The notes under the pieces are model-generated. The model saw only the letters and a program-made list of their open reading frames with translations, was not told where the DNA came from and ran no database searches. Made by a program: the position numbers and the translations under genes. Below, piece after piece: positions 4,719 to 42,409 of a DNA stretch of 64,000 bases; position 1 is the stretch's first letter; each line of letters opens with the position of its first letter. Source of the stretch: Narcine bancroftii (lineage: Eukaryota). The DNA lies in NCBI RefSeq assembly GCF_036971445.1, contig NC_091474.1, positions 77,748,001 through 77,812,000 of the forward strand. Reading direction: 5' to 3'.

Positions 4719-4893
4719 ATGGGAGGGAAACTCTCCGTCAGTTCCAACAACCATGTCGTCATAGTTGGTGGGGGCTTTGGAGGGATCGCAGCCGCCAAAC
4801 AATTGTCCAACCACAGGATCCCTTACACACTGATTGACATAAAATACGCCTTCCACCACAACATGGGGGCTCTAAGAGCATCGGTACAGGAAG
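4719..4893 (+). CDS. AIFM2: AIFM2 paralog A coding exon 1 (MGGKLSV...RASVQEG)
   Basis: Acceptor cacag ends 4711, ATG 4719, FAD-binding [10 protein letters not shown], donor G|gtaaat. Confidence 0.95.
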
Positions 4894-7800
4894 GTAAATT
4901 GGAGGAAAATAAGGGGCTCTGCAATCTCTACCTTAATTACAGTAAAACCCCTGGTATCTGGAATCCATATATTAGACTTACCCAGGTTTGTCCAGTCTCT
5001 TCCTGTATCACATATCCTCTAATCCAGACAACATCTTGCTAAATCTCCTCTGTACCCTTTTCAAAGCCTCCACATCCTTTCGGTAATGAGGCCACCAGAA
5101 TTCCACACAACTTTAAGTAAAGCCTAACTCAAGTTTTACATAACTGAAACATGACTTCCTTCTACAGCGCTGCTCCCAATGAAGGCAGACATACCATTTA
5201 TCTTTACCACTTGATGTACTTGTGTGGCCACTTTCAAAGATCTATGGATCATAACTCCCAGATCCCTCTGCAGGTTAATGCTTTCCCCCTACATTTCATT
5301 TCTCAGATTACAACCACTTACACTTGTCCAGATCAAACCCACATGACATTCCTTTGCCCAGATCTGTTACTGTTCCATATCTTGTTATATTGTTTGAACA
5401 GGATTGTTCACACCTCCATCAATCCTTGTATCATCTGCAAAATGATGAACTGTTCAAGTTTTACCATTCACAGCTCTCCAGTGTAATGAATTCCAAAGAT
5501 TCATTAACCTTTGGGTGAAGACATTTCTCCTCATTTCACTCCAAAATGGCCTACCTCTTATTTTCAGACTGCAACCCCTAGTTCTCGATACATCCGCTGG
5601 GAGCAAACACACTCTCCAAATCTATTCTATCAATGTGTTTGTCTGTTTCAGTGATGTCTCCTCATAGTCTACCAAACTTGAGAACGGGAGCTGAGACACT
5701 TGTCTCATAAAGCAGACCTGCTATCCCGGGGACTAGTGCAGAAAAATGATTGCATTCCATTGAGAGCAAGTATGTGTTTCTTTAGGTGAAAAGAGCAAAG
5801 TCCTGTATTCAAAGTGTGGACTCACCAAGGCCCTTTGTATTGTGCTAAGTCTTAAACAATACTCAAACATGGATTATTAAATGAAAAGTAATGTTCACAT
5901 CACATGATGCCAGGCAATGACAATCTCTAAAATAAGTCCAACTACCCATCCATTACATTCATTGACTTTGCTAATCATAAATTGTATTGTTGAAGGAGGA
6001 ACTTTAGAAGTTGTACATCTTGCCTCACTGTACATTATGTTCCTAATATTTTCATACCATCTATGGAGAGGGTGCGGAGGAGATTTACCAGGATGTTCCT
6101 GGATTAGAAAATAGGTCTTCTGAGGCAAGGTTAGAAAGGAGAGATTAATTAATAGACGTCTACAGCATTATGAGAGACACGGATAAGGTAGATAACCAGC
6201 ATCTTTTCCCAGGGTGGGAGTAGCAAACACCAGAGGACATCTGTACAAAGAGAAGGGAGGGAAGTTTAGGGAAGACATCAGGGGAAAGGGTGCCTGGAAT
6301 GCCTTGCCAGGGGCAGAGGTGGAGGCTGGAACAATAGGGGCATTTAAGAGACTCTTAGACAGGCACATGGATGAAAAAAATGGAAGGTTATGAGGTAGAG
6401 AGGGTTTCATTTTTTTTTGATAAGTACATACAAGTTGGCACAACATTGTGGGCCGAAGGGCCTGTTCTATGTTCTATCAACTGTAATGCATATTTTAAAT
6501 TAGGGTTTGCAAAGAAAACATTCATATCGTATGACCTGACTTTCAAAGAGAACTTCAAACAAGGCAAAGTAAGGGATATTGATTTGGAAGACCAAGGTGT
6601 CATTATGGAGAATGGAGAGGTAAAAAAAAAGAATATTTCTTATGATTTAATAAGTTGGATTTTAAGATAGTTCTCAAGTGTTTCAACTCCAACAAATACA
6701 GTGCTTTAATTGTGTTTTAAAGGTCATACATTACTCGCACCTTATTCTGGCAACTGGAAGCACAGGCCCTTTTCCTGGAAAATTAATTGAACCAGTTAGT
6801 AGAGAAACTGCCATCGAGATGTATGAAGATTTAGTAAAGGAGGTAATATTTCAGATTCCAGATTTTAGATTTATTGTCAGTGTACATACATGACATCACA
6901 TCCCTGAGATTCTTTTTCCTGTGGGTGAGGCAGAATTACCACTTATTGGTAGTACATACAAAATAAAACTGATTCCACTTACACATGCAAACAAAGAAAT
7001 AAAAGCAAACTGACTGTGCAACACAGAGAGGAAAAAAAAACCAATAAAGTAAGAGTCCTTAAATGAGTCCCTGAGGTCTGATGGTGGAGGGGTAGTAGCT
7101 GTTCCTGAACCTGGCAATGTAAGCCTTGTGGGACCTATACCTCTTTCCTGATGGTAGCAGCGGGAACAGAGCGTGTGCTAGGCGATGTGGATCCTTGACG
7201 ATTGCTCTCCGAAGGCAGGGCTCCCTGTAGATGTTCTCGATGGTGGGAAGGGTTTTACCCGTGATGTCCTGGGTAGGCCAGCTAGCTTGTCTCACATGCA
7301 GTTTCTATCCATTTTGCTGTCATTCCACAAGAAAGGATGGTCAATATCTATAAGATCATGAATCCCGTTTCTTCTCTAGATTCCTTATACAGGCCAGATT
7401 CTCTGTTCTCACTAAATCTAATGCCATTATCACTAATTAGCTGCCAGTGAAAACTGTAGAAGCAGACACAACAACAGCAGCATTCAAAATAGATTTGGAC
7501 CGGTTTATGGATAAGAGGGGATTAGACTAAGTGGGATTAGACCATATTGGTTGGCATGGACAAGTTGGGGCGAAAGGCTTGTTCTAGCCTCAATGACTCT
7601 GAGGACTCTATCCATTGTTATACCACTCAGACACTTCGAGGACTATTTGCAACTGCCAACCGTCTTTTCCTGCCTGATTATTGGTGGACGTGGTGGTCAC
7701 ATCACTGATGCTCATTGTTACCTGAAGCCTGTCTGACACATTTGAGTCCAGAATTTTGCTTAGGGCCTTAAACTCCAAGCTATTGAGCTCACCTGTGTTT

Positions 7801-41300: not shown

Positions 41301-42409
41301 CATAGCAACCTCATACTCTTGTCATCAAAAGGAAAAACCAGAGCTGTACAATCCAGTGATCATTGGGGGATCAGAGGTGGAGAGGGTGAGCAAATTTAAG
41401 TTTTTGGGAGTCACTATCTTGCAGGATCTTTCCTGAACCCAAGATGCTAATGACATCGTAACAAAGCACATCAGGGCCTCTACTTCCTCGGGAGTTGGTT
41501 GCAGAAAATGAGTAGGGAATGGGATTGCTCAGAGCTAGCACAGGCTTGATGGGCAGCATGGCCACGTGAGAATTTTTCAGCAATGTCCTTGGGATGCTGC
41601 TTTAGTATCGCATTGATGTGACTCATTCATTAGCCCCAGAGCATGCACAGATGTGTGCAGTAGCTTTGGCCTCACTGAGATGAGGAAAGTTGTTGGCTGT
41701 GCTAAGTTTTGGTGCCAGTGAATCGCTGCACGAATTTGGTTCCAGCCCAAAAGGTGTAGACAATACCGATTTTGGTGTGTAGGGGTTGCATAGGTCCAAA
41801 TCCACCCTCTCGACATCTCCTCCTGGATCCAGCGGCATGGTGCAATCCAAGGTGGCTAGGGAAAGTTCTGTCGTGAATGGCCAGGCCAAGCTTCAATGCA
41901 AGGGATTCCCTTTCTGTGCCTCATGGCACGTGTTTGCTAGATGACCATTGACCCCATGAGAGAGTGTATCCGCCCTTTGGCATGTCTTGTTTTTCATCCT
42001 ACAGGGTGTCTAGCACCAGGCAAGCTTGCTGGAGCCAGTTTAGTTGCTGACTACCCAACCAGGTGACAGGAAACACTGGGCTACATGGCACTCAGACAAA
42101 TGATCTGACGGGAAACTAATAAGTTAACCACTTCCTAAGTTAACTAATTCTTAAGGGTCTGTCTTGATCTACCCTGCTTCTGAGAGGATGGAGACAGAGG
42201 TTCAGGGTTTTGTGTTGCGGCCCTTTCACCTCTTGTACCTCTCTCTGTTCCTAGGTTCACTCAGCATGCTATTGTCAATGGGCCGGAATGATGGGATTGG
42301 TCAGCTGTTCGGATTCCACATTGGAAAATTTGTGGTTGTGCCGCTGAAAAGTAAAGATCTGATGGTTTGGAAAAGCTGGAAAGGAATGGGCCAGACAGCA
42401 CCTTCATGA
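29170..42409 (+). CDS. AIFM2: AIFM2/FSP1 ferroptosis suppressor protein 1, canonical-like paralog B (8 coding exons, 373 aa)
   Basis: Exons 29170-29344, 31057-31172, 31588-31707, 31818-31910, 33954-34062, 35441-35593, 40192-40392, 42255-42409; same exon sizes and phases as paralog A. Motifs [38 protein letters not shown] at 42609. Confidence 0.96.
31057..31172 (+). CDS. AIFM2: AIFM2 paralog B coding exon 2
   Basis: [13 protein letters not shown]...ESGE; ag/gt boundaries, 116 nt. Confidence 0.95.
31208..31521. repeat. C-rich minisatellite, unit about 40 bp (ctctggtcccctacacccctccctgtctctgtgaccccc), 7-8 copies
   Basis: Visible tandem array in a paralog B intron. Confidence 0.9.
31588..31707 (+). 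CDS. AIFM2: AIFM2 paralog B coding exon 3
   Basis: [22 protein letters not shown]...; 120 nt. Confidence 0.95.
31818..31910 (+). CDS. AIFM2: AIFM2 paralog B coding exon 4 (ends at a GC donor)
   Basis: [31 protein letters not shown], 93 nt, followed by GAG|gcatgt. Confidence 0.9.
33954..34062 (+). CDS. AIFM2: AIFM2 paralog B coding exon 5
   Basis: [21 protein letters not shown]...; 109 nt. Confidence 0.95.
35039..35158. mobile_element. Short hAT-Charlie MITE
   Basis: TIRs cagtggttctcaacct / aggttgagaatcactg. Confidence 0.7.
35441..35593 (+). CDS. AIFM2: AIFM2 paralog B coding exon 6
   Basis: QKVTNL...[16 protein letters not shown]; 153 nt; T|gtaagt. Confidence 0.95.
36676..40158 (+). mobile_element. 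L1-clade LINE, degenerate ORF1, ORF2 almost wholly deleted, with polyA tail and TSD
   Basis: TSD catgacagtgtgact at 36661-36675 and 40159-40173; AATAAA plus A-tail at about 40136-40158; ORF1 motifs [43 protein letters not shown]2 start [14 protein letters not shown] at 39742 fused to a C-terminal WEPYMEH segment. Confidence 0.88.
37842..39003. mobile_element. Non-autonomous hAT (Charlie-like) DNA transposon nested in L1 ORF1
   Basis: Perfect 8-bp TSD tcctaaga (37834-37841, 39004-39011); TIRs caggggtgtcaaactc / gagtttgacatgtgtg; subterminal gcgggcc motifs. Confidence 0.9.
40192..40392 (+). CDS. AIFM2: AIFM2 paralog B coding exon 7
   Basis: [17 protein letters not shown]...[22 protein letters not shown]...YKPG; 201 nt. 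Confidence 0.95.
42255..42409 (+). CDS. AIFM2: AIFM2 paralog B last coding exon
   Basis: [16 protein letters not shown]...[20 protein letters not shown]. Confidence 0.95.

What the first reader, a model, noticed from the sequence alone, without database searches (positions are those of the whole stretch)
4719..42409. Two intact tandem FSP1/AIFM2 paralogs: a duplicated ferroptosis-suppressor system
Seen: two complete 373-aa AIFM2 genes with identical exon sizes (175/116/120/93/109/153/201/155), no frameshifts, both keeping Gly2 and Ser6 of the myristoylation signal. Their introns show no similarity by eye and differ greatly in length (e.g. 2129 vs 110 bp), and coding exon 1 differs at 20 of 59 residues. 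Known: AIFM2 is single-copy in human and mouse and reduces CoQ and vitamin K. Inference: an old duplication kept under selection, giving this lineage a second FSP1-type quinone reductase.
Basis: partly seen in the sequence, partly recalled or inferred. Interest (0 to 1): 0.8.

Follow-up and report, generated by a model that had tools for sequence, protein, structure and literature searches.

The report
Sharks' second, remodelled FSP1 enzyme gene
Sharks, rays and chimaeras carry a second, very old copy of the antioxidant enzyme FSP1 that keeps its catalytic core but has a rebuilt substrate pocket, so it may act on different fat-soluble molecules or in different tissues than the ordinary copy next to it.

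Summary
In detail: two intact tandem AIFM2/FSP1 genes, 373 aa each, 225/373 identical, dN/dS about 0.21-0.29. Copy A equals a RefSeq protein of the electric ray Narcine bancroftii. The duplicate is not peculiar to this ray. A-type proteins were retrieved from 23 cartilaginous fishes, including the chimaera Callorhinchus; 18 of the 23 also gave a B-type. None of 89 named bony-vertebrate hits was A-type. The copies are unequal. B is ordinary FSP1 with a CpG island upstream. A changed fast early (stem 0.28-0.30 vs 0.07), then stayed conserved. It has 33 near-fixed private residues against 3 in B; 9 lie among 31 published quinone-pocket positions (p=6e-4; stricter control p=0.048). It keeps 22 of 23 positions where human mutants are dead and folds like FSP1 (TM 0.95). 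Best reading: a working FSP1-type reductase with changed acceptor preference or kinetics; no activity or tissue data were available. Trees favour a cartilaginous-fish origin (bootstrap 97-98), but an older origin with loss in bony vertebrates is not rejected (AU p 0.095, 0.38). Both copies are already auto-annotated 'FSP1-like' in other species; my searches found no paper on them.

The parts
4719..18469 (+). Copy A: divergent AIFM2/FSP1 paralogue, ATG to stop, 8 coding exons, 373 aa
   Evidence: Spliced translation equals P0002 = XP_069741546.1, Narcine bancroftii 'FSP1-like isoform X2'
4712..4718 (+). 7-nt leader after an AG acceptor, implying a non-coding first exon upstream (not located)
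   Evidence: Same 7-nt spacing as copy B; upstream exon is inferred
4719..4893 (+). A coding exon 1 (myristoylation signal, FAD GxGxxG motif, Met49)
6504..6619 (+). A coding exon 2
6723..6842 (+). A coding exon 3; an alternative acceptor at 6702 adds 7 aa
   Evidence: acceptor 6702 reproduces RefSeq isoform X1, and with exon 4 skipped isoform X3
8972..9064 (+). A coding exon 4 (NAD(P)H glycine motif, Leu151, catalytic Glu155 and Glu159)
12375..12483 (+). A coding exon 5 (His173; private Thr175, Tyr176, Gly179)
14294..14446 (+). A coding exon 6
15383..15583 (+). A coding exon 7, the most diverged exon (38 of 68 residues differ from B); helix 293-306 holds 7 private sites in 14 residues
18315..18469 (+). 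A coding exon 8 (C-terminal substrate domain; private 325, 326, 329, 330, 340, 341, 344, 361; Lys354 kept); AATAAA follows at 18596
22301..24100 (.). CpG island upstream of copy B, with a strong splice donor after 23650: likely promoter and non-coding first exon of B
   Evidence: CpG o/e up to 0.88 against 0.30 for the window; donor; promoter role is inferred
29170..42409 (+). Copy B: conventional AIFM2/FSP1, 8 coding exons, 373 aa
   Evidence: 86% identical to Pristis B; B clade support 99-100
29170..29344 (+). B coding exon 1
31057..31172 (+). B coding exon 2
31588..31707 (+). B coding exon 3
31818..31910 (+). B coding exon 4, followed by a GC splice donor
33954..34062 (+). B coding exon 5
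35441..35593 (+). B coding exon 6
40192..40392 (+). B coding exon 7 (canonical FSP1 helix-10 motif)
42255..42409 (+). B coding exon 8; AATAAA follows at 42609

Best explanation
AIFM2 was duplicated in tandem before chimaeras and sharks/rays diverged, most likely on the cartilaginous-fish stem. Copy B kept the ancestral sequence and the CpG-island promoter and works as ordinary FSP1. Copy A went through a burst of change and was then held by purifying selection. It is still an N-myristoylated FAD enzyme that passes a hydride from NAD(P)H to FAD and on to a lipophilic acceptor at a membrane or lipid droplet, using Glu155/Glu159/Lys354. The walls of the acceptor pocket (helix 293-306, strand 325-330, 340-344, 361) and the loop next to the NAD(P)H adenosine (175-179) were rebuilt, so its acceptor preference or kinetics differ from B's. 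Shown here: gene structure, distribution, rate asymmetry, the private residues and their positions, the kept catalytic residues, the fold. Inferred: activity, myristoylation, changed specificity, and B's promoter.
For: A and B clades each contain Callorhinchus plus elasmobranchs (support 100/100 and 99-100/95-96); A+B group together at 98/91 and 97/92. A stem 0.28-0.30 vs B stem 0.07-0.08. Relative-rate tests favour A in 4 of 4 (e.g. 65 vs 33 unique changes, p=0.001). A is more conserved than B in 125 of 136 elasmobranch species pairs (87.0 vs 84.3%). 33 sites are >=95% fixed in 23 A and <=5% in 107 others, against 3 for B. 9 of the 33 fall in the 31 quinone-pocket positions of PMC10516921 (2.7 expected, p=5.6e-4), but only 1 in the 20 FAD adenine/pyrophosphate contacts. 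A keeps 22 of 23 positions where human mutants are null and 38 of 42 screen hits in PMC10643123. AlphaFold pLDDT 88.6; TM 0.95, rmsd 1.3 A to FSP1 structure 9IFT. Two 1.4-1.5 kb contigs carry an uninterrupted 369-aa A-type ORF, 367-368/369 identical to skate A, which implies spliced mRNA.
Against: No enzyme or tissue data. The pocket enrichment weakens under a stricter control: 5 of 22 vs 13 of 160, p=0.048; p=0.07 with the hydroxylation pocket added; p=0.35 for all contacts. Thresholds were mine and the sequences are related. NAD(P)H contacts are not enriched (1 of 9). Several A residues occur in single-copy orthologues or invertebrates (Glu298 in 3 of 89 bony sequences, Val329 in 4 of 89, Gln300 in amphioxus and Ciona), so they may be functionally neutral. 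In human FSP1, pocket mutations affected vitamin K and CoQ10 reduction alike (PMC9929328), so a switch of specificity is not assured. B also has three private sites, one on the flavin-stacking residue 49. AU tests do not reject an older duplication.
Confidence: 0.6

Rival explanations
1. Same chemistry, different place: A and B both reduce CoQ and vitamin K, and the pair is kept because they split tissues, stages or membranes. A's substitutions are mostly compensated drift fixed soon after duplication.
For: Catalytic residues and fold are intact. A CpG island lies upstream of B but no window passed both CpG thresholds in the 4.7 kb before A. Many A residues are seen singly in other FSP1 orthologues. 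Human T327K/R variants stay functional (PMC10643123).
Against: 33 vs 3 private sites, clustered on helix 293-306 (7 of 14 residues) and 325-330 and then held across 23 species, is hard to get from drift alone. A's promoter may lie outside the window, so the CpG contrast is weak.
Confidence: 0.25
2. A is a poor quinone reductase that works mainly as an NAD(P)H oxidase or flavin-hydroxylating enzyme, or as a non-catalytic partner of B.
For: Met293 is replaced by Ser in 23 of 23 A; human M294A halves activity (PMC9929328). His300 is Gln; human H301N gave about 25% vs 45% viability for wild type. Leu151 and Met49 line the FAD-hydroxylation pocket, and FSP1 can make H2O2 (PMC10516921).
Against: All proton-relay and FAD/NAD(P)H residues tested are invariant in 23 A. 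The hydroxylation pocket alone is not enriched (3 of 15, p=0.14). Tyr295 and a hydrophobic residue at 359 still form the substrate clamp.
Confidence: 0.12
3. On timing only, compatible with any function: the duplication happened in the ancestor of all jawed vertebrates and bony vertebrates lost copy A.
For: Forcing B with bony vertebrates is not rejected (AU p=0.095; p=0.38). Bony vertebrates were not recovered as one clade and the outgroups are long branches. Some A states match invertebrates.
Against: Both free trees join A and B with starred support, and A is not pulled to the outgroup. No A-type among 89 named bony sequences, though only the best 120 of 485 hits were listed.
Confidence: 0.25
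4. Assembly artefact, or a decaying pseudogene.
For: None for these genes. A perfect 512-bp inverted repeat 5 kb downstream shows the region can hold odd structures.
Against: 60% identity, unalignable introns, dN/dS under 0.3; intact orthologues in 23 species.
Confidence: 0.01

Closest known systems
Vertebrate FSP1/AIFM2 (human 8WIK, 8JSC, 8YO8; chicken 7XPI; reconstructed tetrapod ancestor 9IFT)
   Same: Length, fold (TM 0.86-0.95, 55-62% identity), MGxxxS/T start, both glycine motifs, Glu155/Glu159/Lys354 relay, Lys292, Tyr295, Asp284, C-terminal substrate domain. Copy B matches the bony consensus at 23 of 23 null-mutant positions.
   Different: Copy A has Ser293, Thr296, Glu298, Phe299, Gln300, Pro325, Tyr326, Val329, Thr330, Leu151, Met49, Thr175, Tyr176, Gly179 (chicken numbering, human minus 1). 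No A-type among 89 named bony-vertebrate sequences.
RefSeq/UniRef 'ferroptosis suppressor protein 1-like' entries of sharks, rays and Callorhinchus
   Same: Copy A is XP_069741546.1; A and B orthologues are already predicted in many genomes.
   Different: The automatic names do not separate the two lineages. No description of the pair was found. A named Narcine copy-B protein was not among the 120 hits listed.
Type II NADH:quinone oxidoreductases (NDH-2, yeast Ndi1), AIFM1, sulfide:quinone oxidoreductase
   Same: Two-dinucleotide-binding flavoprotein fold (TM 0.64-0.77); Pfam Pyr_redox_2.
   Different: 16-25% identity; both copies are far closer to FSP1.
Paddlefish AIFM2 pair (P0027, P0078)
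   Same: Two AIFM2 sequences from one vertebrate species.
   Different: They join each other at 100/100 on short branches: a separate, recent event with the ordinary pocket.

Membership tests
FSP1/AIFM2 (copy A) | Orthology: nests within jawed-vertebrate AIFM2 | tested here: met
   Jawed-vertebrate clade 100/98 and 100/100; A is sister to B
FSP1/AIFM2 (copy A) | Double Rossmann fold with FSP1-type C-terminal domain | tested here: met
   pLDDT 88.6; TM 0.95, rmsd 1.3 A to 9IFT; next family TM 0.77
FSP1/AIFM2 (copy A) | N-myristoylation motif MGxxxS | tested here: met
   Gly2 in 23 of 23; Ser or Thr at 6 in 23 of 23 (16 S, 7 T); two stingrays have Pro3. The modification itself was not tested.
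FSP1/AIFM2 (copy A) | FAD-binding residues (GxGxxG, Asp40, Asn48, Lys117, Gly283-Asp284-Cys285) | tested here: met
   Invariant in 23 A, except Gly18 which is Ala in 3
FSP1/AIFM2 (copy A) | NAD(P)H motif GxGxxGxE, His173, Gly243 and proton relay Glu155/Glu159/Lys354 | tested here: met
   Invariant in 23 of 23 A; the variable motif position 151 is Leu, seen in 0 of 107 others
FSP1/AIFM2 (copy A) | Canonical quinone pocket (293-298, 327-331, 340-350, 354-362) | tested here: inconclusive
   Lys292, Tyr295 and Lys354 kept and Leu at 359 as in mouse, but 9 of 31 positions carry private residues
FSP1/AIFM2 (copy A) | Reduces CoQ or vitamin K and suppresses ferroptosis | not testable with these tools
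   Needs enzyme and cell assays
FSP1/AIFM2 (copy B) | Orthology, motifs and canonical pocket | tested here: met
   23 of 23 null positions and 40 of 42 screen positions match the bony consensus; 66-70% identity of B sequences to coelacanth, paddlefish and quail
FSP1/AIFM2 (copy B) | Fold by structure prediction | not tested
   Only copy A was folded
FSP1/AIFM2 (copy B) | Measured activity | not testable with these tools
   Needs assays
NDH-2 / AIFM1 / SQR | Closer to these than to FSP1 | tested here: not met
   TM <=0.77 and <=25% identity, against 0.95 and 62% for FSP1

The most novel reading that the evidence does not exclude
Copy A is a cartilaginous-fish enzyme with its own lipophilic acceptor, different from ordinary FSP1's (for example biased to vitamin K, tocopheryl quinone or a quinone not yet linked to FSP1). 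It would serve a tissue such as the oil-filled liver, where FSP1-type protection of lipid-droplet fats would matter. That would make it a natural, long-conserved specificity variant of FSP1 and a second arm of anti-peroxidation defence absent from bony vertebrates.
Probability: 0.2. Interest if true: 0.75.

Novelty: new variant of a known kind. Interest (0 to 1): 0.5.

Why it matters
FSP1 is a drug target whose substrate and inhibitor selectivity depend on a few pocket residues (PMC10643123, PMC10516921, PMC12146761). A paralogue that keeps the catalytic core, changes about a third of the pocket and has been conserved across sharks, rays and chimaeras is a ready natural experiment on what sets quinone preference. 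It also points to a lipid-protection function in cartilaginous fishes that has apparently not been described. The A/B pair makes this testable with standard assays. If A turns out to be the same enzyme in another tissue, it is an ordinary retained duplicate.

Tried and rejected
Assembly artefact and pseudogene were rejected. A duplication private to this ray was rejected. A third copy in the window was not found; sequence upstream of base 1 could not be seen. No named lamprey or hagfish AIFM2 was obtained from 20 look-ups, so the trees rest on distant invertebrate outgroups; one unnamed candidate (P0169) fell outside amphioxus. Tissue expression stayed unchecked: the catshark atlas paper PMC11979771 has no hit for four gene terms in its main text and its supplement could not be read; it may hold such data. 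Literature: searches (0 papers; 1, a chicken genome report; 6; 28 papers, 27 listed) gave no title on this duplicate, judged from listings only; two searches were uninformative (the 30 listed papers each had 0 occurrences of the gene term); one search listed 20 of 41, none on this. Most subscription journals are not covered. Rfam found nothing at gathering thresholds. A bacterial promoter scan was irrelevant and not used. No complex prediction was run, since an A-B or A-A dimer would be expected to pass by likeness to the chicken dimer. Rows left out: unnamed hits were excluded from the 130-row alignment, as were partial or fused models and extra isoforms; the trees used 45 and 51 selected rows.
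Full report
Observation. Copy A runs 4719-18469 and copy B 29170-42409 on the plus strand, each with eight coding exons of 175/116/120/93/109/153/201/155 nt that splice to 373 aa without internal stops. Introns are 1610/103/2129/3310/1810/936/2731 bp in A and 1712/415/110/2043/1378/4598/1862 bp in B, and none of the 7 positional pairs aligns. The proteins are identical at 225 of 373 positions; dN is 0.28-0.30 and dS 0.98-1.42 by four methods, a ratio of 0.21-0.29. One of 14 donors, B intron 4, is GC. 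No third copy is present.

Source and expression. The spliced copy A equals P0002, RefSeq XP_069741546.1 of Narcine bancroftii. Two further RefSeq isoforms are reproduced exactly by an alternative acceptor at 6702, with or without skipping exon 4; such isoform models usually rest on RNA reads (recalled). Two unnamed contigs of 1438 and 1517 bp hold a 369-aa ORF that is 367-368/369 identical to skate A; since the gene spans about 14 kb here, these imply spliced mRNA. A named Narcine B protein was not among the 120 hits listed of 485, so B's model rests on homology (86% to Pristis B).

Distribution. Exon 7 of A retrieved 14 proteins from 33 candidates, all from cartilaginous fishes. With cluster members, A-type proteins came from 23 species; 18 of them also gave a B-type, including Callorhinchus milii; B was not retrieved for the other five, whose clusters I did not list. 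Tandem order elsewhere is indicated indirectly: shared contig lengths, neighbouring accessions in Pristis, Hypanus, Chiloscyllium punctatum and Callorhinchus, and a fused catshark model whose first 155 residues match A (128 vs 87 identities) and whose remainder matches B (256 vs 203). None of 89 named bony-vertebrate sequences was A-type; 365 lower-ranked hits were not seen. The downstream gene groups with tetrapod ELOVL3 (SH-aLRT 98), and tarpon AIFM2 and its ELOVL carry consecutive locus tags, so this appears to be the ancestral AIFM2 neighbourhood.

Age and asymmetry. In two IQ-TREE runs (45 and 51 rows) A and B are each one clade with Callorhinchus at the base, and A+B join at 98/91 and 97/92. 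The duplication therefore predates the chimaera-elasmobranch split, roughly 410 million years ago (date recalled). Whether it also predates the split from bony vertebrates is open: forcing B with bony vertebrates is not rejected (p=0.095; p=0.38), bony vertebrates were not recovered as a clade, and no named cyclostome was available. The A stem is 0.28-0.30 substitutions per site against 0.07-0.08 for B, with a second long stretch on the elasmobranch A stem (0.17-0.18 vs 0.06). All 4 relative-rate tests favour A. After that A slowed: it is the more conserved copy in 125 of 136 elasmobranch pairs (pairs are not independent).

What changed. Copy A numbering equals bird numbering (offset 0 at 373 of 373 positions) and is human minus 1 (via a named primate). 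Thirty-three sites are at least 95% fixed in 23 A sequences and at most 5% in 18 B plus 89 bony sequences; the mirror test gives 3 for B. Nine fall among the 31 quinone-pocket positions defined on chicken FSP1 (PMC10516921), against 2.7 expected (p=5.6e-4). Seven lie in the 14 residues 293-306. Only 1 lies in 20 FAD adenine/pyrophosphate contacts and 1 in 9 NAD(P)H contacts. Restricting to sites conserved in both groups weakens this to 5 of 22 vs 13 of 160 (p=0.048), 0.07 with the hydroxylation pocket and 0.35 for all contacts. Individual changes touch tested residues: human M294A halves vitamin K-dependent activity (PMC9929328); T327K/R remain functional but resist inhibitors (PMC10643123); L330S abolishes CoQ1 turnover in human FSP1 while A has Val; H301N is partial and Y281N null, where A has Gln and Phe.

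What did not change. A matches the bony consensus at 22 of 23 positions I compiled as null in human FSP1 and at 38 of 42 screen positions; B matches at 23 and 40. Gly2, Asp40, His47, Asn48, Arg53, Lys117, Glu155, Glu159, His173, Gly243, Asp284, Cys285, Lys292, Tyr295 and Lys354 are invariant in all 23 A. The AlphaFold model (pLDDT 88.6) matches FSP1 structures at TM 0.86-0.95 and NDH-2 at 0.77 or less. Several A residues also occur in working orthologues or invertebrates, which argues against a dead enzyme but also tempers the claim of new specificity.

Mechanism and rivals. The most likely reading (0.6) is neofunctionalisation: B remains general FSP1 behind a CpG island at 22.3-24.1 kb, and A is a membrane-targeted NAD(P)H-dependent flavin reductase with a reshaped acceptor site. 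Same chemistry in different tissues (0.25) and an oxidase-like or non-catalytic role (0.12) remain possible. FSP1 protects lipid-droplet triacylglycerols (bioRxiv 10.1101/2025.01.06.631537), and shark livers are oil-rich (recalled), which motivates but does not support a liver role for A.

Novelty. Both copies belong to the FSP1/AIFM2 family by sequence, tree and, for A, fold; function is untested. Orthologues are already in RefSeq under one automatic name. My searches found no paper describing the duplication or the altered pocket (listings only; most subscription journals not covered). I rate it a new variant of a known kind, interest 0.5: real, old and directly testable, but a retained vertebrate paralogue with no functional data yet.

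Papers seen. PMC10896247: parts 1-2 of 5. PMC10643123: outline, Results, part 1 of 2 of Extended data, source-data file 2; three supplementary files not searched. PMC10516921: parts 1-4 of 8 and supplement 1 part 2. PMC9929328: passages. PMC12146761: part 1 of 5. bioRxiv 2025.01.06.631537: abstract and outline. PMC11979771: term search of main text only; supplement unreadable.

Noticed in passing
window 63657-63529, 58713-58558, 55788-55369 (minus strand): Last three coding exons of a fatty-acid elongase annotated 'ELOVL6-like' in sharks; it groups with tetrapod ELOVL3. In tarpon the AIFM2 and ELOVL locus tags are consecutive.
   Followed up: partly
window 47248-47759 and 48456-48967: A 512-bp inverted repeat, 100% identical, with a 696-bp spacer, between copy B and the elongase. 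Either a very recent inverted duplication or an assembly quirk; unexplained.
   Followed up: partly
window 31911-31912: GC splice donor in copy B intron 4; copy A has GT at the same intron.
   Followed up: partly
window 23749-24311: G-rich 16-bp minisatellite, about 36 copies, just after the putative first exon of copy B.
   Followed up: no
window 43279-43894 and 31209-31483: 36-bp minisatellite (17 copies, 98% matches) after copy B, and a 43-bp array (6.6 copies) in B intron 2.
   Followed up: no
window about 36660-40160: B intron 6 (4598 bp) holds a long insertion with two CpG-rich patches (36.8-37.4 and 38.2-39.1 kb); by eye a decayed LINE-like element interrupted at about 37840-39000 by a unit with inverted ends. 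Labels are recalled, not tested.
   Followed up: no
window 13596-14112 and 55911-56435: An 80%-identical 530-bp dispersed repeat shared by copy A intron 5 and an elongase intron.
   Followed up: no
window 4719-4736 and orthologues: All 23 A proteins have Lys or Arg at position 4 (1 of 18 B); two stingray A proteins have Pro at position 3, which may weaken myristoylation (the effect is recalled).
   Followed up: partly
window 29314-29316 and 42371-42373 (copy B residues 49 and 361): Copy B has its own fixed residues, Pro49 at the flavin-stacking position and Trp361, in 18 of 18 sequences; Trp361 also occurs in coelacanth and two teleosts.
   Followed up: no
P0001 (Scyliorhinus torazame model scyTo_0010993): A mis-fused gene model joining the tail of A to B, which shows the same A-then-B order in a catshark.
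   Followed up: yes
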